Shown here: positions 36,930 to 44,008 of the stretch, in pieces
Numbering within the stretch: position 1 is the stretch's first letter
How the letters are laid out: each line of letters begins with the position of its first letter
Position numbers and translations under genes: made by a program
The notes under the pieces: generated by a model
What the model was told of the DNA's origin: nothing
What the model saw: only the letters and a program-made list of their open reading frames with translations
The model's database searches: none
Sequence record: OL856099
DNA from: Shigella phage CWP003
Length of the DNA: 64,000 bases
Strand: one strand, 5' to 3'

Positions 36930-37802
36930 CTATTTATTGAAATTAATATTATGGGTGTTGACAAGACGTTCACACATGGCGCTGTAAACACCATCATCGT
37001 GTATTGAGTCTTCGTGCTTCAGGCCGCTGATTGCGAAGCGTGTAAGCTTGACAATCTTAAGCTCGAACAGATGCCACATGTGGTAGTCTTCCGGCGTTTT
37101 CAACGTCACGCCATTAGGGAAAAGCACCTGCATAACCTGACCTACCATCACAGCGTTATCGCCATAGACCGCGTTGCGCTCACGGAAGGTTGCTGCCATC
37201 GCATCAAGAATATCGGCGGCAGTTGCCGGAGATTGTTCAACTTCCACAGCCTTAGTCTCTTCTTGCCCTGTTGCACTTGGATCAATTGCTAATTGTTGCA
37301 CCACTTCACCTGCCTTGCAAAGATTAAATGTAAAAGCGATTTTATTTTGAGCAACGGAATTATAATACAATGCTTCATCTTGCATCCGCGCGAGTACGTC
37401 TTGTCGGTCGTCGAATACATTGATGATTCGATAATCGCCGTGCCGCAATGCGTGCGACAGCCATGCAGATTTCATAATAGTTGATGGACGTTTGTCGCCA
37501 TAGTCTCTCATCTTGATTGTAAATTCATCAAAAGGGAAAACATTGTCCAGACGTTCAAAAGTCACTTGTCTGTATTTTTCTGGCCTTGCAGTCCAATATT
37601 CAACCGCCTCACCGCGAAGAGAGGCCGACTCTACTGCTGATGCAATGTGAGGATAGAACTGATCATAACCAATACCGCTGTGATAATCATCATAGTCTGA
37701 CAACGGACCTGCCACCTTGATGCGGTCTAAGCGCCAACGGTCATCAAACAGCGTTCCGTCAAGGTCGAATACGTTTAAGATTTCGCTGTTTTTAATGCTC
37801 AT
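36930..37802 (-). CDS. HAD-superfamily phosphatase-domain protein
   Basis: HAD motif I VFDLDGTLFDD near N-terminus; C-terminal half unassigned. Confidence 0.55.
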   Translation of the reverse strand: MSIKNSEILNVFDLDGTLFDDRWRLDRIKVAGPLSDYDDYHSGIGYDQFYPHIASAVESASLRGEAVEYWTARPEKYRQVTFERLDNVFPFDEFTIKMRDYGDKRPSTIMKSAWLSHALRHGDYRIINVFDDRQDVLARMQDEALYYNSVAQNKIAFTFNLCKAGEVVQQLAIDPSATGQEETKAVEVEQSPATAADILDAMAATFRERNAVYGDNAVMVGQVMQVLFPNGVTLKTPEDYHMWHLFELKIVKLTRFAISGLKHEDSIHDDGVYSAMCERLVNTHNINFNK

Positions 37803-38602
37803 CCTTTTGATACTCCATCTTTAGCAACTGGATTGTTGGTGATTGGCATCGCACTCCAAAACTGGATGCGCAACTCTTCTTGCTGTGCCGTGGTATCCAT
37901 CCAATCACGATACCAAGGGCAATGGGCTTTACCGTGACGAGGAAATGCGCACTTACCCATACCAATGCATTGCGGCTGCAGTAATGGATTCGCCCAAGGG
38001 TGCACCTTGAGGACTTCCGCAACCATTGCGCGGAATACTTCTTGATACTCTCCTTGCGTGCGCGTGCACAAGCGGTTTGACGCCATCTGCTGCAGCGTGC
38101 GCAAGTTGAACTTTGCCATGATATGCGTTTGCATATTAGAAGGCAACACGGCACGTGCATCTTGAATCTCTGCGCCAGCCGCGCGAAGCTCTTGATACAA
38201 AGCGTCGATAGTCGCCATCGCATCATCCCACTTCTCTGCCAGTTCAGCTGCCTTCTCGTCATGGCGAGTCCATCCCTTTGGATCATCCTCTGGGTAAGTG
38301 AATTTAGCAGGACGAATCGCATCAAATGCAGACGACTCCTGAGCGCGGCTGGTGCGTTCTTGATATGCGCCTGTGCGTGTGCGTACCATCTGATGGGTCA
38401 TGTTCTTTGATACAGCTGTGATATCAAAGATATAGTCCACAAAGTCAAAAGGCGACTTGATTGTATCAAGCATGTAGCGCCAATGCTCTTGCTTCTCTGA
38501 TTCCGTCATCTCAGAGACAGGCTTACCAGTCATGCGCGTGTTCTTTGTTTCCAGCAAAAGGTCAAGTGCATCTTGGGTGTATCGAATTAATTCAACTTTC
38601 AT
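37799..38602 (-). CDS. thyX: ThyX-like (flavin-dependent thymidylate synthase family) protein with variant motif
   Basis: SPFDFVDYIFDI...HQMVRTRTGAYQERTSR parallels the ThyX SPFEH...HQLVRHR...S.RY region, with Thr in place of the motif His. Confidence 0.5.
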   Translation of the reverse strand: MKVELIRYTQDALDLLLETKNTRMTGKPVSEMTESEKQEHWRYMLDTIKSPFDFVDYIFDITAVSKNMTHQMVRTRTGAYQERTSRAQESSAFDAIRPAKFTYPEDDPKGWTRHDEKAAELAEKWDDAMATIDALYQELRAAGAEIQDARAVLPSNMQTHIMAKFNLRTLQQMASNRLCTRTQGEYQEVFRAMVAEVLKVHPWANPLLQPQCIGMGKCAFPRHGKAHCPWYRDWMDTTAQQEELRIQFWSAMPITNNPVAKDGVSKG

Positions 38603-38615
38603 TTTAATTGTCCTA

Positions 38616-39062
38616 TTAACGGTAATTCACTAGTTGCTGATCACCAGAGAAGGTGCAATGATAAACGAATTGTGCGTTATAAAGCAACTGAAAACTTTTC
38701 TTTGGTTCATTATTAGAACTCATTGATGTAAAGATTTCTGCACCAGAACGGTTTTCACCAATCAGATTGATAAAGCCGCCAGTTGAACGAGGTTGAACGA
38801 AAGTGAAACGTTGCATCCACGGAGTCCGGTTGACACCTTTTCCGGTGAATCCTTGAATCTGAATATTCAGACCTTCTTGCTCATTCACACCGATGTAAGT
38901 GGTAATCTTCGCACCAGTCGTTGCTGCGGTCTTACCGTCCATCGCTTCGCAATCGTAAACAGCGATTGAATCGGAAGTACGGATGGCGGCTTCAGTCGCT
39001 TCCATATACATGGTGCCGAGAATAGCAGTTGCGGCAAGCGCGATTCCAGTGATTCGTTTCAT
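38616..39062 (-). CDS. secreted small protein with signal peptide
   Basis: AGAGGA RBS; MKRITGIALAATAILGTMYMEATEA signal-like N-terminus; two Cys. Confidence 0.5.
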   Translation of the reverse strand: MKRITGIALAATAILGTMYMEATEAAIRTSDSIAVYDCEAMDGKTAATTGAKITTYIGVNEQEGLNIQIQGFTGKGVNRTPWMQRFTFVQPRSTGGFINLIGENRSGAEIFTSMSSNNEPKKSFQLLYNAQFVYHCTFSGDQQLVNYR

Positions 39063-39127
39063 TTTCGTTTCCTCTATGAGTTCTGCTTCAATGATTAAAG
39101 TATACGCCCATTGAAGCAGAAAGCAAA

Positions 39128-40123
39128 TTATTTATTAGCAATATAAGCAAATTTTTGATAGTTATTTGCTTTGATGAGTTTTTCGACTTCAACAAGGTCA
39201 TGAGCGACGTCATCAAGCAAGATATTGCGCCAGGTCGCGAATCGACCGACACTAAACACGTTTAAATCCATAGTCAGCTGCAGGAGTAGGGCGTGTCGCA
39301 AGTCTTTCGGAATGTCGACAATCTTGCCATATTTCTGGTCGACCTTTTCAACTTCTTCAAGAGCAATGTCACTCCATGAAAGGCCAAAGGCCGTCAACAC
39401 TTCGTCGACTTCTGCGCGCAGCTTCATGTCACGGTAACGAGTGATGCCGCCTGCGGCTTCAACTGCAGCTTCACTCACGCTGACCAAAGGAATTGTTTCA
39501 ATGATAAGCGTGTCACCAGTAATTGATGCGCGGTAAGTTCTGACGGAGTAGTCAGGGAAGTAAATTGTCTGATACAAATCACACTTACGTTTAATCTTAA
39601 AGCGGTAAACGCGAATGTTTGCTTTATCAAATGAGAAATCAAGCTTTTGATCAATTCCAGCAAGCTTCATCATGACTGGCAGCGGCGACGTGTTGATGAT
39701 TGGCGTCTCGCTATAGCCGCAAAGAGTATCAACCGGAGTATTAAAGAATATGCGGTCACCCAGTTTGTCGACAAGCTGATCATAAAAGTCATCAGGCGCA
39801 ATATAACGCGTTGCAGTCTTAAGCTTCATGATTGAACGGCTGCCAAATTGATTGGTGACCTTCATGGAATACATATTGGCAAGGTTGATTGGGCAATGGT
39901 CGTGATAGTAGTTGCCGCGAAAATACACAGCCTTGTCAACTGTCACGGCCTTAAAAGGGATTCCGGTAATACGGCTTACTTCTTCGCCGCGAAAGCGTAG
40001 CAGCGCCTTGTGCTGTTGCGCTCGTTCCCCTGCTTCGTACACAATAGAGTTCGGGAAGTGACACGCGGTGATAAGTCCTGCCAATCCGCCGCCGATAATC
40101 ATTACAGGTTGTTTCATGTTCAT
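39128..40123 (-). CDS. FAD/NAD(P)-binding oxidoreductase
   Basis: N-terminal Rossmann motif VMIIGGGLAGL; AAAGGA RBS. Confidence 0.6.
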   Translation of the reverse strand: MNMKQPVMIIGGGLAGLITACHFPNSIVYEAGERAQQHKALLRFRGEEVSRITGIPFKAVTVDKAVYFRGNYYHDHCPINLANMYSMKVTNQFGSRSIMKLKTATRYIAPDDFYDQLVDKLGDRIFFNTPVDTLCGYSETPIINTSPLPVMMKLAGIDQKLDFSFDKANIRVYRFKIKRKCDLYQTIYFPDYSVRTYRASITGDTLIIETIPLVSVSEAAVEAAGGITRYRDMKLRAEVDEVLTAFGLSWSDIALEEVEKVDQKYGKIVDIPKDLRHALLLQLTMDLNVFSVGRFATWRNILLDDVAHDLVEVEKLIKANNYQKFAYIANK

Positions 40124-40255
40124 TTGTCCTTTGTGGGTGATATGAGAAGTATAATAGCTAAATTATTTTACAGCAACAAGTCATTTTATTTAGTACAGAT
40201 GAAAAAAGACCCACAACAAGTGTGGGTCAATTACCGCTGCATAACCGTCCTAAGG

Positions 40256-41095
40256 TTATTCCGCTTGATCACCGTCTTCGGCATCTTCGTTGGGTTCAAC
40301 ATCGACAAACTCGATGTGGCCCATCTCTTCCAGCTTGCTCAGGTAGGAGCGAACGGAAGCGCCAAACAGTTGATCTTTAACTTTTTCGCCCAGCTCATCG
40401 ATAGACTGCGCCACGCCAACTTCGCCTTCTTTGATCGCCGCCAGAACGCGTCCACGGGTGGAATGCTCTTGCGGCTGGCTCAGGCCATTGCCAGTGTAGA
40501 TGAAGTGAGTAGCTTTTGCACGACGTTGACCGTTTGCCTTTTTAGCGGCCTTACGTTCTGCGATGGCTTTGCGACGTTCTTCAGCTTCTTTCTTACGCTG
40601 TTCTTTCTGTTGTTCTGCAGCTTCTTTCGCCGCAATCTTAGCAGCTTCACGCTCTGCCTTGCGTTTCGCTTTAGCTTCTTCTTTGGCCTTCTCTTTTTCG
40701 GCCTTCGCTGCAGCACGGGCTTGATCACGCTCTGCTTTCTTAGCAGCAGCTTGTTCAGCTTTCAGGCGCTTGGCTTCTTCTTTAGCCTTTGCCTTTTCGA
40801 TTTCTTTTGCTGCTTTAGCGGCTTCACGCTCTGCTTTCTTAGCAGCAGCCTTTTCTGCACGCTCTTTAGCTTTCTTAGCTGCTTCTTCAGCACGCTTCTG
40901 AGCCTTCTCATCAGCAGCCTGCTTGCGTTTCAGGGCAGCTTCTTCACGCTTGGCTTGTTTTTCCTGCTCACGCTTCTGGCGTTTTTCTTCGGCTTCTTTC
41001 TTTTTAGCCAGACGTTTTTCTTCAGCCACGCGACGGCGTTCTGCTGCAGCTGCTTGCTTTTCTTCTTTAGATAATACTTTGATTGCTTCGGCCAT
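40256..41095 (-). CDS. K/A/E-rich low-complexity helical protein with small C-terminal globular domain
   Basis: about 200 aa of AKKAEREAAKAAKE-type repeats; RBS TAAGGAC before ATG at 41095 (table ORF starts at GTG 41101). Confidence 0.5.
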   Translation of the reverse strand: MAEAIKVLSKEEKQAAAAERRRVAEEKRLAKKKEAEEKRQKREQEKQAKREEAALKRKQAADEKAQKRAEEAAKKAKERAEKAAAKKAEREAAKAAKEIEKAKAKEEAKRLKAEQAAAKKAERDQARAAAKAEKEKAKEEAKAKRKAEREAAKIAAKEAAEQQKEQRKKEAEERRKAIAERKAAKKANGQRRAKATHFIYTGNGLSQPQEHSTRGRVLAAIKEGEVGVAQSIDELGEKVKDQLFGASVRSYLSKLEEMGHIEFVDVEPNEDAEDGDQAE

Positions 41096-41254
41096 ATTCA
41101 CAGTCCTTAAATAAATTAGTTTATTTTATATTCCCCGTTTGGGATAACTTAATTATGCCTTCAGTCGCCGCCAGTAGCAACTAAAAACTCTGGCGGCAAT
41201 GCCACTTTAATTAAACTGATTTTCAGTTTTATTTTTCGTAAATTTACGTCAACA

Positions 41255-42439
41255 TTAACGCGCTTTCAAATCACGGTACACGGTCAGATTCTTCTTAGCG
41301 CGGGTGATGGCTGTGTACATCATCTTGGCATACGGAACGCCGCGCAAGATTTCTTCTAGCACGCACACATTGTCCCACTCGCTGCCTTGCGATTTGTGCA
41401 CCGTTATGACATAGCCATAGTCCATGCCTCCAACAGCGCGTTGAGCCTCTTTGCGCACTTCCTGATCAGTAGAGAAGGAAAGAGGATTTATCTTCACCTT
41501 TATATCTTTGCCATCGGTAAGCGAGCGCAAATTGACATACATGATTTCATTAGACTCGTCTTCATCCCTTTCAAAGTCCGGTACTGGCTCATAACTAATA
41601 ACAATCCCTTGCTCGCCATTACAGAATCCTGGACCGTGTTGATTGAATGTGCAAATAACTTTCTCGCCGATTCCTGGCATTGGCGTTATACGTCCGCTCA
41701 CTTGGCGCAATAATGAATTCCATTTATCTTTGGTGCTATTATAAGAGCAAATAATTTGATCATCTTCGCCCATGAATTTCTTCAGTGCGGTAACGCGCGG
41801 CGATTCAGCCAACACCTTTACGTCATCGTATTCACGCGGAGGAAGTCGGTTGCCCTGTCGCACGAAGAAGGAAGCGCGGATTATGTTTGACTCTTTCCCC
41901 TGCCGCATGATTTCGGTTAACAGTACGTCAACGGCATCTTCAGTGAAGTAGGCGGCGGCTTTTACCGGAGGGACTTGTCCAATGTCGCCTAATGCCAGGA
42001 CAGGGATGCGGTGATCAAGAAGGCGCTCTGTGTCCCACTCACCGACCATTGAAGCTTCATCAAGGACGACAAGGTGCGGCCTTTCATCAAGCGTTGACTT
42101 TCTTGCGAAGATTGGTTCATTGTCATCGTTAACGCCGCGCACGTTATAGATGAACTGGTGAAGGGTCTTAGCGCCACGACAACCTTTTTGCTTTAATCGG
42201 CTGGCGGCCTTTCCGGTCGGCGCAATATAAATGGCACCGTACTCACCGACACAACGGCGCACAATCTCACGCGCAATAGAGGTTTTACCTGTTCCTGCAT
42301 AGCCAGCGATGAAAAACACGCGCTTCGTCGTTTTACCGTCCTGCAATCGCTTGTACCATGCAACGGCCTTTTCGATGGCATCAATCTGTTGCGCGTTGAA
42401 CTGAATCACTGGCTCATTATTAAATTCTGGAATGTTCAT
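41255..42439 (-). CDS. Dda/RecD-like SF1 DNA helicase
   Basis: Walker A GYAGTGKTS, Walker B VVLDEASMV, C-terminal VITVHKSQGSEWD motif. Confidence 0.7.
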   Translation of the reverse strand: MNIPEFNNEPVIQFNAQQIDAIEKAVAWYKRLQDGKTTKRVFFIAGYAGTGKTSIAREIVRRCVGEYGAIYIAPTGKAASRLKQKGCRGAKTLHQFIYNVRGVNDDNEPIFARKSTLDERPHLVVLDEASMVGEWDTERLLDHRIPVLALGDIGQVPPVKAAAYFTEDAVDVLLTEIMRQGKESNIIRASFFVRQGNRLPPREYDDVKVLAESPRVTALKKFMGEDDQIICSYNSTKDKWNSLLRQVSGRITPMPGIGEKVICTFNQHGPGFCNGEQGIVISYEPVPDFERDEDESNEIMYVNLRSLTDGKDIKVKINPLSFSTDQEVRKEAQRAVGGMDYGYVITVHKSQGSEWDNVCVLEEILRGVPYAKMMYTAITRAKKNLTVYRDLKAR

Positions 42440-42765
42440 TATAACTCCACTACGCTTTCAAGGTCCAGATATACTGGAATAAAATGGCAATCTTCTTTTC
42501 GTTCAAACATCTCACCGTCAACGTGACTGAAGAAAACAGTCGTGTTTGGTATCTTCCACCCTTTCTCGTCGCGCACCAGGTACGCCATGGATTCAACAGG
42601 GATGTAAAGCGATACCGGATTTGCGGCAAAGATGAATTTGATTCTGTCTGGTTGACCCAGGAATCGCATAATTGTAAGACTTGAATTCAGTCTTGTATTA
42701 AGGAAGGACTCAACGATTCCGACGTGTGTCGCACGTTCGCGTTGCTTCGTATCTTTTTCGTTCAT
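42439..42765 (-). CDS. hypothetical protein
   Basis: first gene of minus-strand operon. Confidence 0.4.
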   Translation of the reverse strand: MNEKDTKQRERATHVGIVESFLNTRLNSSLTIMRFLGQPDRIKFIFAANPVSLYIPVESMAYLVRDEKGWKIPNTTVFFSHVDGEMFERKEDCHFIPVYLDLESVVEL

Positions 42766-42868
42766 TTCAGGCGACCTTTGTTAGTGCGGAAATATTTTCT
42801 GATAGTATAATTGCAGATATAGTATAAAGCAAAGTAAATCGAAATTGTGAACTAAATGGTAAATATTG

Positions 42869-42896
42869 TTGACTTTGTATCACTCAATATTATACT
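42869..42896 (+). promoter_or_regulatory. sigma70-type promoter for early plus-strand operon
   Basis: TTGACT, 16-nt spacer, TATACT in the divergent intergenic region. Confidence 0.45.
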
Positions 42897-42925
42897 GCAG
42901 GTATTGATCACCGAAGGAAAGAAAG

Positions 42926-44008
42926 ATGGCTAGTTTAAGAGAAGAAGCAAAAATAATCGAAGAGTTTTTGACGGAACTCCAAAGAGGCATTCCAGAAGAT
43001 GAACGCGTCATGACCGTGTTTGCTCCTGAAGCAACAGTGCAGACTGACGAGCGCGGCAAAAAGATTAACAGCAGCTTCTGGCCTAAGCCTTGGAAGCTTG
43101 GCAAGCCGCTGATGCAACATCAGAACGGTTACGCCTGCATAAGTTCAATGCGTAAGTCTCCCAACCCAAAGACAGGCGAGATGCGATACTGGCGCACGGA
43201 ATCGGCTTTCGGTCATGGCATGGCGATGATGGTCGACGACATCGGACACGGTAAAGGGTCCAAAGGCGATTTGGATTTGGAGTTCTTTTTCGAGCGCCTA
43301 AAACCAACCGTCATTGTCGAGACTTCGCCGAACAACCACCAGCTGTGGTACTTCTTTAAAGACCCGATTGACCATCTTATCCAGTTCAAGGCATTTCTTG
43401 GGTCTTTCGTAAACATGGTACTCAAGAAGGGCGGCGACAACACGATTAAAGATGTGACGCGCGTTGGCCGTGTTCCTGGGTGTATCAACAACAAACGTGT
43501 GACTCACGACGGACCTTACAAATATGTCGATGAGAACGGCGACCCGTTCCGCTGCCGACTTGTTCATGCAGACTACTCTTTGCGCTACACAATCGAAGAG
43601 ATTTGCCAAGCCTTCGGTTTCCACGTCGTTATGCCGCAAAAGCGTGAAATTCAAATCGACGTTGACGAATACAAATATGACGCTGTTTGGTATAAGATAG
43701 CCCAGCAAATCCTTGCGCGCAATAAGATGGGCGAAGGGTCCGATGGCGATGTGGTTGAAAACATGTCAGGTAAATGCCGCATCATCTGTCCTTGGGGTGA
43801 AGAGCACACCAACGGCGACCCATACGGCGCTTATTTTCGCGGCCCAATCCCTGGCGCTGAACATGAATTCGTTTTCGGTTGCGCTCACGACTGCCACCGG
43901 AAAGGGGAAGGCAAGAAAGGATGGACCGCTTTTGTTGAAGCAGTAGTTATGCCTTATATTGAGAATCAACTTGATATGATAAATCGTCGCGCAGGTGGCA
44001 TAAAATAG
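42926..44008 (+). CDS. putative DNA primase (primase-polymerase-like) with C-terminal Cys/His cluster
   Basis: AAGGAAAG RBS; acidic MMVDDIGHG segment; CPWGEEH...GCAHDCH cluster; upstream of P-loop helicase-like gene. Confidence 0.4.
   Translation: MASLREEAKIIEEFLTELQRGIPEDERVMTVFAPEATVQTDERGKKINSSFWPKPWKLGKPLMQHQNGYACISSMRKSPNPKTGEMRYWRTESAFGHGMAMMVDDIGHGKGSKGDLDLEFFFERLKPTVIVETSPNNHQLWYFFKDPIDHLIQFKAFLGSFVNMVLKKGGDNTIKDVTRVGRVPGCINNKRVTHDGPYKYVDENGDPFRCRLVHADYSLRYTIEEICQAFGFHVVMPQKREIQIDVDEYKYDAVWYKIAQQILARNKMGEGSDGDVVENMSGKCRIICPWGEEHTNGDPYGAYFRGPIPGAEHEFVFGCAHDCHRKGEGKKGWTAFVEAVVMPYIENQLDMINRRAGGIK

What the first reader, a model, noticed from the sequence alone, without database searches (positions are those of the whole stretch)
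40256..41095. Histone-H1 / TolA-like K-A-E repeat protein
About 200 residues are nearly pure Lys/Ala/Glu/Arg helical repeats (AKKAEREAAKAAKEIEKAKAKEEAKR...), followed by an ~80-aa globular C-terminus with an acidic tail. There is no transmembrane segment, so it is not a classical TolA. The charge pattern suggests a long single alpha-helix or a nucleoid-coating protein, possibly involved in genome compaction or replication-compartment organisation.
Basis: seen in the sequence. Interest (0 to 1): 0.45.

Follow-up and report, generated by a model that had tools for sequence, protein, structure and literature searches.

The report
Charged rod plus winged-helix phage protein
This is a real, strongly conserved gene of a coliphage's DNA-replication region that encodes a roughly 26-nm charged helical rod ending in a small DNA-binding-type (winged-helix) domain; it is neither TolA nor a histone, and its function has never been tested.

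Summary
Window 40256-41095 (minus strand) is gp068 of Escherichia phage vB_EcoM_WFH (Wifcevirus). It encodes 279 aa: about 190 residues that are 92% A/K/E/R/Q, a globular C-terminus, and an acidic tail. There is no TM segment.

New findings:
- AlphaFold predicts one unbroken helix (residues 10-186) followed by a winged-helix (WH) domain entered through an N-terminal strand.
- The helix has no heptads. Its K/R residues follow an 11/3 (hendecad) period, forming a basic stripe opposite an acidic/Ala face.
- This stripe is found in 17 of 22 family members, in a conserved phase relative to an invariant Arg arm. E. coli TolA lacks it.
- All conserved charged residues are basic.
- The family (PHROG 4765, e.g. 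PB1 gp69) is small and was found only in phage genomes and phage-like metagenomic contigs. In 8 of the 9 informative contexts examined it lies directly 3' of a Dda-like helicase, usually as its own transcription unit.
- Within the genus the "low-complexity" helix is under strong purifying selection.

Best reading, inferred and not shown: a DNA-binding accessory or architectural rod of the replication module.

The H1-like polycation idea is weak, because homologues are nearly charge-neutral. The "TolA" and "structural protein" labels are annotation artefacts. I rate it a new variant of a known fold, of moderate interest.

The parts
40256..41095 (-). Complete CDS (279 aa plus stop) = HOV51_gp068; member of PHROG 4765
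   Evidence: ORF list; RefSeq annotation; PHROG 4765 E=2e-83; purifying selection across the genus
40538..41068 (-). Residues 10-186: one predicted uninterrupted alpha-helix (about 26 nm). K/R occupy hendecad positions 0, 3, 7, 10 (a basic stripe). E/D occupy positions 2, 5, 8, 9 on the opposite face, with Ala between them.
   Evidence: AF2 full-length model; periodicity and register analysis
40508..40537 (-). Residues 187-196, ANGQRRAKAT: conserved basic arm (family motif G-x-R-R-x-K-A-T-H; R192 invariant, R191 and T196 nearly invariant) leading into the first strand of the domain
   Evidence: Alignments A1/A3; motif scan
40304..40507 (-). Residues 197-264: winged-helix-type domain, strand-H1-strand-H2-H3-strand. 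It has an HTH-turn Gly245 and invariant R249/K254 on helix 3.
40259..40303 (-). Residues 265-279: disordered acidic tail (net -8). Its length varies from 3 to 43 aa in the family.
41152..41180 (-). Sigma-70-like promoter candidate TTGCTA-17-CATAAT, about 50 nt upstream of the ATG
   Evidence: Consensus scan. Similarly placed (C/G)ATAAT -10 elements occur in Hera and L010 and, by eye, in PB1. Not experimentally mapped.
41104..41108 (-). Shine-Dalgarno AAGGA, 8 nt before the ATG
   Evidence: Sequence read; an RBS is annotated at the equivalent place in phage Mansfield
40208..40228 (-). Intrinsic terminator GACCCACA-CTTGT-TGTGGGTC followed by T6, 28 nt after the stop codon
   Evidence: annotated in the RefSeq record; an equivalent terminator follows the orthologue in PB1, LBL3, Hera, WFC and L010
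41167..41197 (.). Perfect inverted repeat GCCGCCAG-N15-CTGGCGGC spanning the -35 hexamer, of unknown role (helicase-gene terminator remnant, or an operator)

Best explanation
gp068 is a separately transcribed gene of the phage's replication and nucleotide-metabolism module. Its product is a rod-and-anchor protein.

Anchor: a conserved Arg-rich arm plus a C-terminal winged-helix domain entered through an N-terminal strand. The conserved basic residues (R191, R192, R214, R249, K254) most likely contact nucleic acid.

Rod: a 177-residue straight helix whose K/R residues follow an 11/3 period. This gives a continuous basic stripe held in a fixed rotational phase relative to the anchor, with an acidic/Ala face on the other side.

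Proposed mechanism: the WH and arm dock on DNA. The basic stripe then lies along, or bridges to, neighbouring DNA or another polyanion. Alternatively it pairs with the acidic face of a second copy to form an antiparallel bridging dimer. The variable acidic tail would modulate binding. The protein would act as an architectural or accessory factor for the adjacent Dda-like helicase and the replisome.

Shown: gene reality, architecture, periodicity, conservation, synteny, transcription-unit signals.
Inferred: nucleic-acid binding, partnership with the helicase, any oligomeric state.
For: - Conservation: every invariant or nearly invariant charged residue is basic (R167, R181, R191, R192, R214, R249, K254). 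A conserved Gly sits at the H2-H3 turn.
- Stripe: K/R period 3.70, z=13.8, with 0 shuffles reaching it. Register positions 0/3/7/10 are 56-75% K/R, and positions 3, 7 and 10 carry no acidic residues (12% at position 0). The K/R vector lies about 180 degrees from the E/D vector. The same period is the top period in 17 of 22 family members and is absent from TolA. Its phase relative to the invariant R192 is conserved (circular R=0.81).
- Selection: 8-11 synonymous versus 0-1 non-synonymous codon changes in the helix, and a fixed length of 840 nt.
- Context: the gene lies immediately 3' of a Dda-like helicase in the window, PB1, LBL3, Hera and four distant metagenomic relatives, although the downstream genes differ.
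- Expression signals: its own promoter-like site and terminator.
- Unfilled roles: no SSB, clamp or initiator is recognisable in the module, so DNA-binding accessory roles remain unassigned.
Against: - No experiment exists for any family member. Papers give only annotation labels.
- The WH core is not basic overall (net 0 here, -3 to +4 in homologues). WH folds also serve as protein-binding modules: RPA32C, Scc1 and ScpB are among the hits.
- Foldseek finds no significant PDB match (best E 0.42).
- The helix net charge is small in most homologues.
- No 22-24-residue super-period matching the DNA helical repeat was found.
- Helicase adjacency may simply reflect inherited synteny within one phage lineage. 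One distant member (L012) does not show the helicase adjacency on its short contig: it is the first gene of its operon and its downstream neighbour has no Pfam match.
- The phase conservation is partly due to residual homology of the helix segment nearest the WH domain.
Confidence: 0.4

Rival explanations
1. Protein-protein adaptor or molecular ruler. The WH is a protein-binding module (as in RPA32C, Scc1 or ScpB) that recruits the Dda-like helicase or a host factor. The charged helix is a stiff single-alpha-helix spacer that does not touch nucleic acid.
For: - The WH core is charge-neutral and most homologues are near neutral overall.
- There is no heptad seam, and opposite-charge i+3/i+4 pairs are mildly enriched, which is SAH-compatible (z=2.2 in the window, up to 3.6 in homologues).
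- Helix length varies from 86 to 261 aa between lineages.
Against: - All conserved charged residues are basic, including an Arg-Arg arm and R/K on the third helix. This is the usual signature of a polyanion-binding surface.
- A spacer would not need a phase-locked basic stripe, nor near-absolute sequence conservation within the genus.
Confidence: 0.25
2. Sequence-specific wHTH transcription regulator, either an autoregulator or an activator of phage middle/late promoters.
For: - wHTH fold.
- Own promoter, with a perfect 8-bp inverted repeat spanning its -35 hexamer.
- Pbunavirus 14-1 has a non-sigma-70 promoter class whose factor is unknown (PMC10914365).
Against: - The helix-3 sequence (V/I-R-S-Y/F-L-S-K-L-E-E) is almost invariant from E. 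coli phages to Pseudomonas, Burkholderia and metagenomic phages. The inverted repeats upstream of the gene, however, are unrelated in sequence between genera, and the WFH repeat occurs only once in 64 kb.
- A 26-nm charged rod is not a feature of known wHTH regulators.
Confidence: 0.12
3. One reading: an H1-like polycationic protein that coats and condenses DNA (phage or host nucleoid).
For: - The WFH protein is basic (pI 9.6; helix net charge +25 to +28).
- It combines a WH with a Lys/Ala-rich region.
- Monocistronic promoter-plus-terminator units are typical of abundantly expressed proteins.
Against: - The polycationic character is not conserved: helix net charge is -8 to +13 in homologues, and the PB1 protein is about -5 overall.
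- The tract is 20% Glu.
- There is no Linker_histone Pfam match, and H1 globular domains reach only Foldseek probability 0.07-0.11.
- The lead to the nucleoid-associated protein YejK/NA37 stayed at hhalign probability 28% over 39-41 columns.
Confidence: 0.1
4. Virion or internal-head 'structural protein', as labelled in LBL3, NH-4, SCUT-S1, Hera and others, for example a DNA-associated protein packaged with the genome.
For: - 'Putative structural protein' labels appear in several GenBank records.
- A basic stripe could neutralise packed DNA.
Against: - The gene lies in the replication module, on the opposite strand from the head/tail operon.
- The SCUT-S1 orthologue (ORF69) is absent from the 31 proteins detected by virion LC-MS/MS, although trace helicases ORF56 and ORF70 were seen (PMC6521218). 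One caveat: that study used DNA-depleted ghost particles.
- The LBL3 note 'putative cell wall associated hydrolase' points to a low-complexity BLAST artefact as the source of the label.
- In what was read of the E217 and Pa193 cryo-EM papers, no component corresponding to this family was mentioned; Pa193's candidate internal proteins are encoded in the head gene cluster.
Confidence: 0.06
5. A TolA homologue, or an envelope-spanning Tol-Pal mimic, as annotated in ECML-117, FEC19, BcepF1, MTx and others.
For: Compositional resemblance to TolA domain II, and database labels.
Against: - No TM anchor or signal peptide.
- No TolA or TonB C-terminal domain, and no Pfam or NCBIfam hit of any kind.
- TolA domain II shows period 5.3 and |R|=0.12 at 11/3, against 0.40 for this protein.
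- The C-terminus is a winged helix.
Confidence: 0.01

Closest known systems
PHROG 4765 / Pbunavirus PB1 gp69 (ORF66), LBL3 gp64, Serratia phage Hera gp53, Burkholderia phage BcepF1 'TolA'
   Same: True homologues. The full-length PHROG match has E=2e-83. The C-terminal domain is 37-57% identical in homologues outside the genus. They share the same architecture, the same position after the Dda-like helicase, and the same terminator.
   Different: None has a known function. The N-terminal helix is not alignable between genera and varies from 86 to 261 aa. The WFH version is unusually basic.
Winged-helix (wHTH) DNA-binding domains; the closest topology is the MetAP2/Ebp1/Arx1 insert domain
   Different: Sequence identity is only 4-26%. 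No significant Foldseek, Pfam or PDB sequence match was found. The usual beta-hairpin wing appears to be replaced by an N-terminal strand preceded by an Arg-rich arm. This is inferred from the order of secondary-structure elements, not from inspecting coordinates.
Sulfolobus Sso10a (a winged-helix plus long antiparallel coiled-coil chromatin protein)
   Same: An analogy only: a WH domain attached to a long helix, described as an architectural DNA bender and bridger (PMC4941522 abstract; the structural details are from my own knowledge).
   Different: There is no sequence relationship. In Sso10a the WH is N-terminal and the helix is a short, heptad-based dimerising coiled coil. Here the helix is 177 aa, hendecad-periodic and charged, and its oligomeric state is unknown.
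Linker histone H1/H5
   Same: A WH domain combined with a Lys/Ala-rich extension.
   Different: The order is reversed and the tract contains 20% Glu. The extension is predicted helical rather than disordered. There is no Linker_histone match, and the charge is not conserved across the family.
E. coli TolA domain II
   Same: An Ala/Lys/Glu-rich tract predicted to form a long helix.
   Different: This protein has no TM anchor and no TolA domain III, and its charge periodicity differs.
ER/K single alpha-helix (SAH) domains and 11-mer amphipathic repeats (LEA group 3, apolipoproteins, alpha-synuclein)
   Same: SAH domains: highly charged, no hydrophobic seam, predicted to be a single helix. The 11-mer proteins: a 3.67-residue periodicity that produces straight stripes (the comparison with these families is from my own knowledge).
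   Different: SAH domains interleave E and K/R along the helix, whereas here basic and acidic residues are segregated to opposite faces. The 11-mer lipid-binding helices have a hydrophobic face, whereas here that face is Ala/Glu.

Membership tests
TolA (Tol-Pal system) | N-terminal transmembrane anchor | tested here: not met
   Maximum 19-residue Kyte-Doolittle hydropathy is 0.61, and that maximum lies in the C-terminal domain
TolA (Tol-Pal system) | C-terminal TolA/TonB-type domain III | tested here: not met
   No Pfam or NCBIfam hit at all. The C-terminus folds as a winged helix.
TolA (Tol-Pal system) | Long Ala/Lys/Glu/Asp-rich helical domain II | tested here: inconclusive
   The composition is similar. 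However, E. coli TolA domain II has a dominant period of 5.3 and no 11/3 K/R stripe (|R| 0.12 against 0.40).
Linker histone H1/H5 | Globular domain of the Linker_histone (H15) family | tested here: not met
   No Pfam match. Yeast Hho1p GII and H1.0 appear only at Foldseek E 2.5-9.7, probability 0.07-0.11.
Linker histone H1/H5 | Acid-poor, strongly polycationic Lys/Ala/Pro tail C-terminal to the WH | tested here: not met
   The tract is N-terminal, 20% Glu, and predicted helical. Family net charge is -8 to +13.
Winged-helix fold (wHTH superfamily) | Three-helix bundle packed on a small antiparallel sheet | tested here: met
Winged-helix fold (wHTH superfamily) | HTH turn and a conserved polar/basic face on helix 3 | tested here: met
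   G245 is nearly invariant; R249 and K254 are invariant; S250 and S253 are conserved in most members
Winged-helix fold (wHTH superfamily) | Actual DNA (or RNA) binding | not testable with these tools
   Needs EMSA, ChIP, or a complex structure
ER/K single alpha-helix (SAH) domain | High E/K/R content without a hydrophobic heptad seam | tested here: met
   K+R 35%, E+D 22%, hydrophobic residues 5.9%. z at period 3.5 is -0.7.
ER/K single alpha-helix (SAH) domain | Dense i to i+4 (or i+3) E-K/R salt-bridge pattern | tested here: inconclusive
   Opposite-charge i+3/i+4 pairs are only mildly enriched (z=2.2). The dominant signal is segregation of K/R and E/D to opposite faces.
ER/K single alpha-helix (SAH) domain | Monomeric, stable helix in solution | not testable with these tools
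   Needs CD and AUC or SEC-MALS
Canonical (heptad) coiled coil | 3.5-residue periodicity of hydrophobic a/d positions | tested here: not met
   z(3.5) is about -0.7 to -0.9 in the window protein and in most homologues
NA37 / YejK nucleoid-associated protein | Significant match to Pfam PF04245 or to the YejK profile | tested here: not met
   Only 3 of 22 members give sub-threshold hits (best E 0.0068). The PDB profile hit has E 0.33. hhalign probability is 28% over 39-41 columns, both against YejK alone and against a 25-sequence YejK alignment.
PHROG 4765 (phage family of unknown function) | Full-length profile match | tested here: met
   E=2.1e-83 for residues 1-279; the C-terminal domain alone gives E=3.2e-40
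Virion structural protein | Detected in purified virions | tested here: not met
   From the literature, for an orthologue only: SCUT-S1 ORF69 is not among the 31 proteins found by MS (PMC6521218 Table 1). The Pa193 MS tables are not held.

The most novel reading that the evidence does not exclude
The phase-locked basic stripe and opposite acidic/Ala face make the 26-nm helix self-complementary. Copies would pair basic face to acidic face into antiparallel dimers or higher-order lattices, with winged-helix anchors at both ends. This would be a previously undescribed kind of viral DNA-bridging or scaffolding rod that organises replicating phage DNA next to the Dda-like helicase, in Pbunavirus and Wifcevirus phages.
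Probability: 0.12. Interest if true: 0.7.

Novelty: new variant of a known kind. Interest (0 to 1): 0.4.

Why it matters
[quoted passage not shown] Databases mislabel it as 'TolA', 'structural protein', 'helicase' or 'transcription initiation factor'.

Recognising it as a winged-helix protein on a hendecad-striped rod corrects those labels. It also gives a concrete, testable candidate for a missing DNA-binding accessory function in a replisome that has no recognisable SSB, clamp or initiator.

It is also an example of a 'low-complexity' tract that is in fact under strict positional selection. The Wifcevirus isolates of the BASEL collection (Bas98-101) grow on an engineered E. coli K-12 host, so genetic tests are feasible.

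Tried and rejected
- TolA homology: rejected. No TM, no domain III, different periodicity.
- Histone H1 homology: rejected.
- YejK/NA37 lead, raised by weak Pfam and PDB-profile hits. I followed it up with hhalign against E. coli YejK and against a 25-sequence YejK alignment. Probability stayed at 28% over about 40 columns, so it is rejected as evidence of homology. The genome-contig scan and the third protein search, spent on building that alignment, returned only sequences at least 81% identical.
- Heptad coiled coil: no signal.
- A 22-24-residue charge super-period matching the DNA helical repeat: none in the family.
- DNA-level tandem repeats: none of note.
- A conserved operator upstream of the gene: inverted repeats exist at the same place in several genera, but their sequences are unrelated.
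- More distant homologues or alternative domain fusions: exhaustive phmmer found only 27 representatives, all with the same architecture. The profile search added none.
- Virion proteomics: the SCUT-S1 table lacks the orthologue. The Pa193 and 14-1 supplementary tables are not held. The Ceyssens 2009 paper is not held.
- The afdb50 fold library was unavailable.
- PADLOC, NCBIfam and Pfam gave no family for the full-length protein.

Full report
**Identity of the window and the gene.** A 6-kb stretch (38000-44000) around the finding is 100% identical to Escherichia phage vB_EcoM_WFH (genus Wifcevirus) and 94-98% identical to most of the other Wifcevirus genomes. The finding's coordinates coincide exactly with the RefSeq CDS HOV51_gp068, annotated 'hypothetical protein'. 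The gene lies on the minus strand, with its ATG at 41095 and stop codon at 40256-40258. The same gene is called 'TolA protein' in ECML-117 and FEC19, and 'hypothetical' elsewhere.

**Checking the observation.**
- Composition: residues 1-195 are 92% A/K/E/R/Q, with net charge +28. The last 84 residues are compositionally ordinary, with net charge -11 and an acidic end.
- Physical properties: no hydrophobic segment approaches TM strength; pI is 9.6 and MW 31 kDa.
- DNA level: there are essentially no tandem repeats, so this is not a recently expanded repeat.
- Coding frame: the antisense 354-aa ORF at 40010-41074 (+) is a mirror artefact of low complexity.
- Selection: in five Wifcevirus genomes the gene is always 840 nt. 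Codons 1-187 carry 8-11 synonymous but only 0-1 non-synonymous differences. The 'low-complexity' helix is therefore under strong purifying selection on its exact sequence.

**Transcription unit.**
- Upstream of the gene lies a sigma-70-like site (TTGCTA-17-CATAAT, 41180-41152) and an AAGGA Shine-Dalgarno. A strong intrinsic terminator sits 28 nt after the stop codon (40228-40208).
- A terminator directly after the orthologue is also seen or annotated in PB1, LBL3, Hera, WFC and a metagenomic relative.
- Similarly placed -10 elements occur in Hera and L010, and by eye in PB1.
- These are consensus matches, not mapped transcripts. The 14-1 TSS tables that could confirm them are not held.

**Family.**
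- Pfam, NCBIfam and PADLOC give nothing for the full-length protein. PHROGs places it in family 4765, function unknown (E=2e-83).
- A tblastn search with the C-terminal 96 aa finds 356 phage records: 293 Pseudomonas phages (apparently Pbunavirus), 28 Escherichia/Wifcevirus, plus Serratia, Burkholderia, Xanthomonas, Pantoea and Aeromonas phages. Their annotations are contradictory: TolA, structural protein, helicase, transcription initiation factor, head morphogenesis.
- An exhaustive phmmer search of 1.84 billion representatives finds only 27 clusters. All full-length members share one architecture:
  - a charged N-terminal region of 86-261 aa;
  - the motif G-x-R-R-x-K-A-T-H;
  - a conserved domain of about 70 aa ending in G-x-S-x-R-x-Y-L-S-K-L-E-E-x-G-H-x-D-F;
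  - an acidic tail of 3-43 aa.
- A profile search found nothing more distant.

**Structure.**
- With a 22-sequence alignment, AlphaFold2 models residues 183-279 at pLDDT 84, with the core above 90. The order of elements is strand(197-200)-H1(213-222)-strand(229-231)-H2(232-243)-H3(248-257)-strand(261-264).
- Foldseek against the PDB finds nothing significant (best E 0.42). Against BFVD it finds only the protein's own family.
- The MetAP2-type hits align the most residues (78-83, against 49-79 for the other listed hits). That is consistent with a topology in which an N-terminal strand takes the place of the last wing strand. I recall SCOP describing the MetAP2 insert as a circularly permuted winged helix, but I did not check this here and could not inspect coordinates.
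- The full-length model (21 sequences) is a single continuous helix from residue 10 to 186, with pLDDT mostly above 90. It is followed by the WH domain and a disordered tail.

**The helix is not a heptad coiled coil and does not show TolA's charge pattern.**
- Fourier analysis shows no 3.5-residue signal (z about -0.7). It shows a very strong 3.70-residue period for K/R (z=13.8; no shuffle reached it) and a 3.65-residue period for E/D (z=9.6).
- In an 11-residue register, positions 0, 3, 7 and 10 are 56-75% K/R; positions 3, 7 and 10 carry no acidic residues (12% at position 0). Positions 2, 5, 8 and 9 carry the acidic residues. The K/R and E/D resultant vectors point about 180 degrees apart. 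The rod therefore has a continuous basic stripe, an opposite acidic face, and Ala in between.
- The same K/R period is the top period in 17 of 22 family members, even though the regions are not alignable between genera. E. coli TolA domain II has a different dominant period (5.3) and no 11/3 signal.
- Measured backwards from the invariant Arg192, the phase of the stripe is conserved across the family (circular R=0.81). Part of this reflects residual homology of the helix segment nearest the WH domain.
- Opposite-charge i+3/i+4 pairs are only mildly enriched. The helix is compatible with a stable single helix but does not show the classic ER/K pattern.
- No 22-24-residue super-period matching the DNA repeat exists.

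**Conservation logic.**
- Invariant or nearly invariant residues include R167, R181, R191, R192, R214, R249 and K254, and no acidic residue. A Gly is conserved at the H2-H3 turn. S/R/S/K residues lie on the exposed side of helix 3.
- This is what a polyanion-binding wHTH with an Arg-rich arm would look like.
- However, the WH core is not basic overall. The helix net charge is only -8 to +13 in homologues, against +25 here, and PB1 gp69 is net negative.
- An H1-like polycationic coating function is therefore not a conserved property of the family.

**Context.**
- The gene sits in the minus-strand replication and nucleotide-metabolism module. That module contains a ligase, an SNF2 helicase, PolIII-alpha, an epsilon-like exonuclease, HAD/PNKP, ThyX, a UGM-like protein, this gene, and a Dda-like helicase. 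A RepB-like primase lies across a divergent intergenic region.
- No SSB, clamp or initiator is recognisable in the module.
- In PB1, LBL3, Hera and four distant metagenomic relatives the gene lies immediately 3' of the Dda-like helicase, while the downstream genes differ. One very distant member on a short contig does not show this adjacency.

**Literature.**
- No paper found assigns a function to any member.
- The 'structural protein' label traces to records such as LBL3 ORF66 ('putative structural protein; putative cell wall associated hydrolase').
- In the SCUT-S1 virion proteome the orthologue ORF69 is not among the 31 proteins detected, although trace helicases were seen (PMC6521218). That study used DNA-depleted ghost particles, which is a caveat.
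- In what was read of the E217 and Pa193 cryo-EM papers, no component corresponding to this family was mentioned.
- The BASEL paper describes Wifcevirus biology but not this gene.

**Interpretation.**
- Most likely (about 0.4): a nucleic-acid-binding accessory or architectural protein of the replication module, anchored by the WH and Arg arm. A rigid striped rod would contact or bridge DNA or another polyanion, or pair with a second copy.
- Rivals:
  - protein-protein adaptor or ruler (0.25);
  - sequence-specific regulator (0.12), weakened because the upstream inverted repeats are not conserved while helix 3 is;
  - H1-like coating (0.1);
  - virion protein (0.06);
  - TolA homologue (0.01).
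- The weak lead to the nucleoid protein YejK did not survive profile-profile testing (28% probability).

**Verdict.** This is a phage-specific, uncharacterised family built on a known fold, with an unusual, positionally constrained hendecad-charged rod. I rate it a new variant of a known kind and of moderate interest. The key claims (nucleic-acid binding, oligomeric state, helicase partnership) need experiments.

Noticed in passing
window 39128-40123 (-), with 37799-38602 (-) and the genes further downstream on the minus strand: gp067 (331 aa) lies directly downstream of the finding. It has no Pfam or NCBIfam hit and falls in PHROG 4828, function unknown. The Mansfield record calls it a UDP-galactopyranose mutase on the basis of HHpred. 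It clusters with ThyX, a HAD/PNKP-like protein, an SDR and a glyoxalase-like protein. The BASEL paper notes that Wifcevirus phages are fairly resistant to restriction, so this could be a nucleotide or DNA modification pathway.
   Followed up: partly
window 41167-41197: A perfect inverted repeat, GCCGCCAG-N15-CTGGCGGC, spans the -35 hexamer of the gene's promoter candidate and is unique in the 64-kb window. PB1, Hera and two metagenomic relatives carry unrelated inverted repeats (7-9 bp arms, 7-25 bp spacers) at the equivalent position between the helicase gene and this gene. Its role is unknown.
   Followed up: partly
window 40010-41074 (+): A 354-aa ORF antisense to the gene, rich in F/L/S/C. 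It is a mirror artefact of the K/A/E coding tract, not a gene. The synonymous/non-synonymous pattern supports the minus-strand frame.
   Followed up: yes
window 38616-39062 (-): gp066 (148 aa) has a hydrophobic, signal-peptide-like N-terminus (MKRITGIALAATAILGTMY...). It matches no family in Pfam, PHROGs or NCBIfam, yet sits between ThyX and the UGM-like gene.
   Followed up: no
window about 25200-47700 (replication module): The module encodes a ligase, an SNF2-type helicase, a small helicase-annotated protein, PolIII-alpha, an epsilon-like exonuclease, a Dda-like helicase, a RepB-like primase and a second gene annotated as DNA primase. No recognisable SSB, sliding clamp or origin-binding initiator was found by Pfam, PHROGs or the RefSeq annotation.
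   Followed up: partly
window 40538-41068 (-), protein residues 1-186: The WFH protein alone shows an additional 9-residue period in net charge (z=8.6; no shuffle reached it). One other member (P0020) peaks nearby at 8.5 residues (z=7.0); the remaining homologues show nothing. It is not a harmonic of the 11-residue repeat and remains unexplained.
   Followed up: no
window 42766-42925: A 160-bp divergent intergenic region lies between the minus-strand operon (gp070, Dda-like helicase) and the plus-strand RepB-like primase gene. It is a candidate site for divergent promoters or an origin, and was not examined.
   Followed up: no
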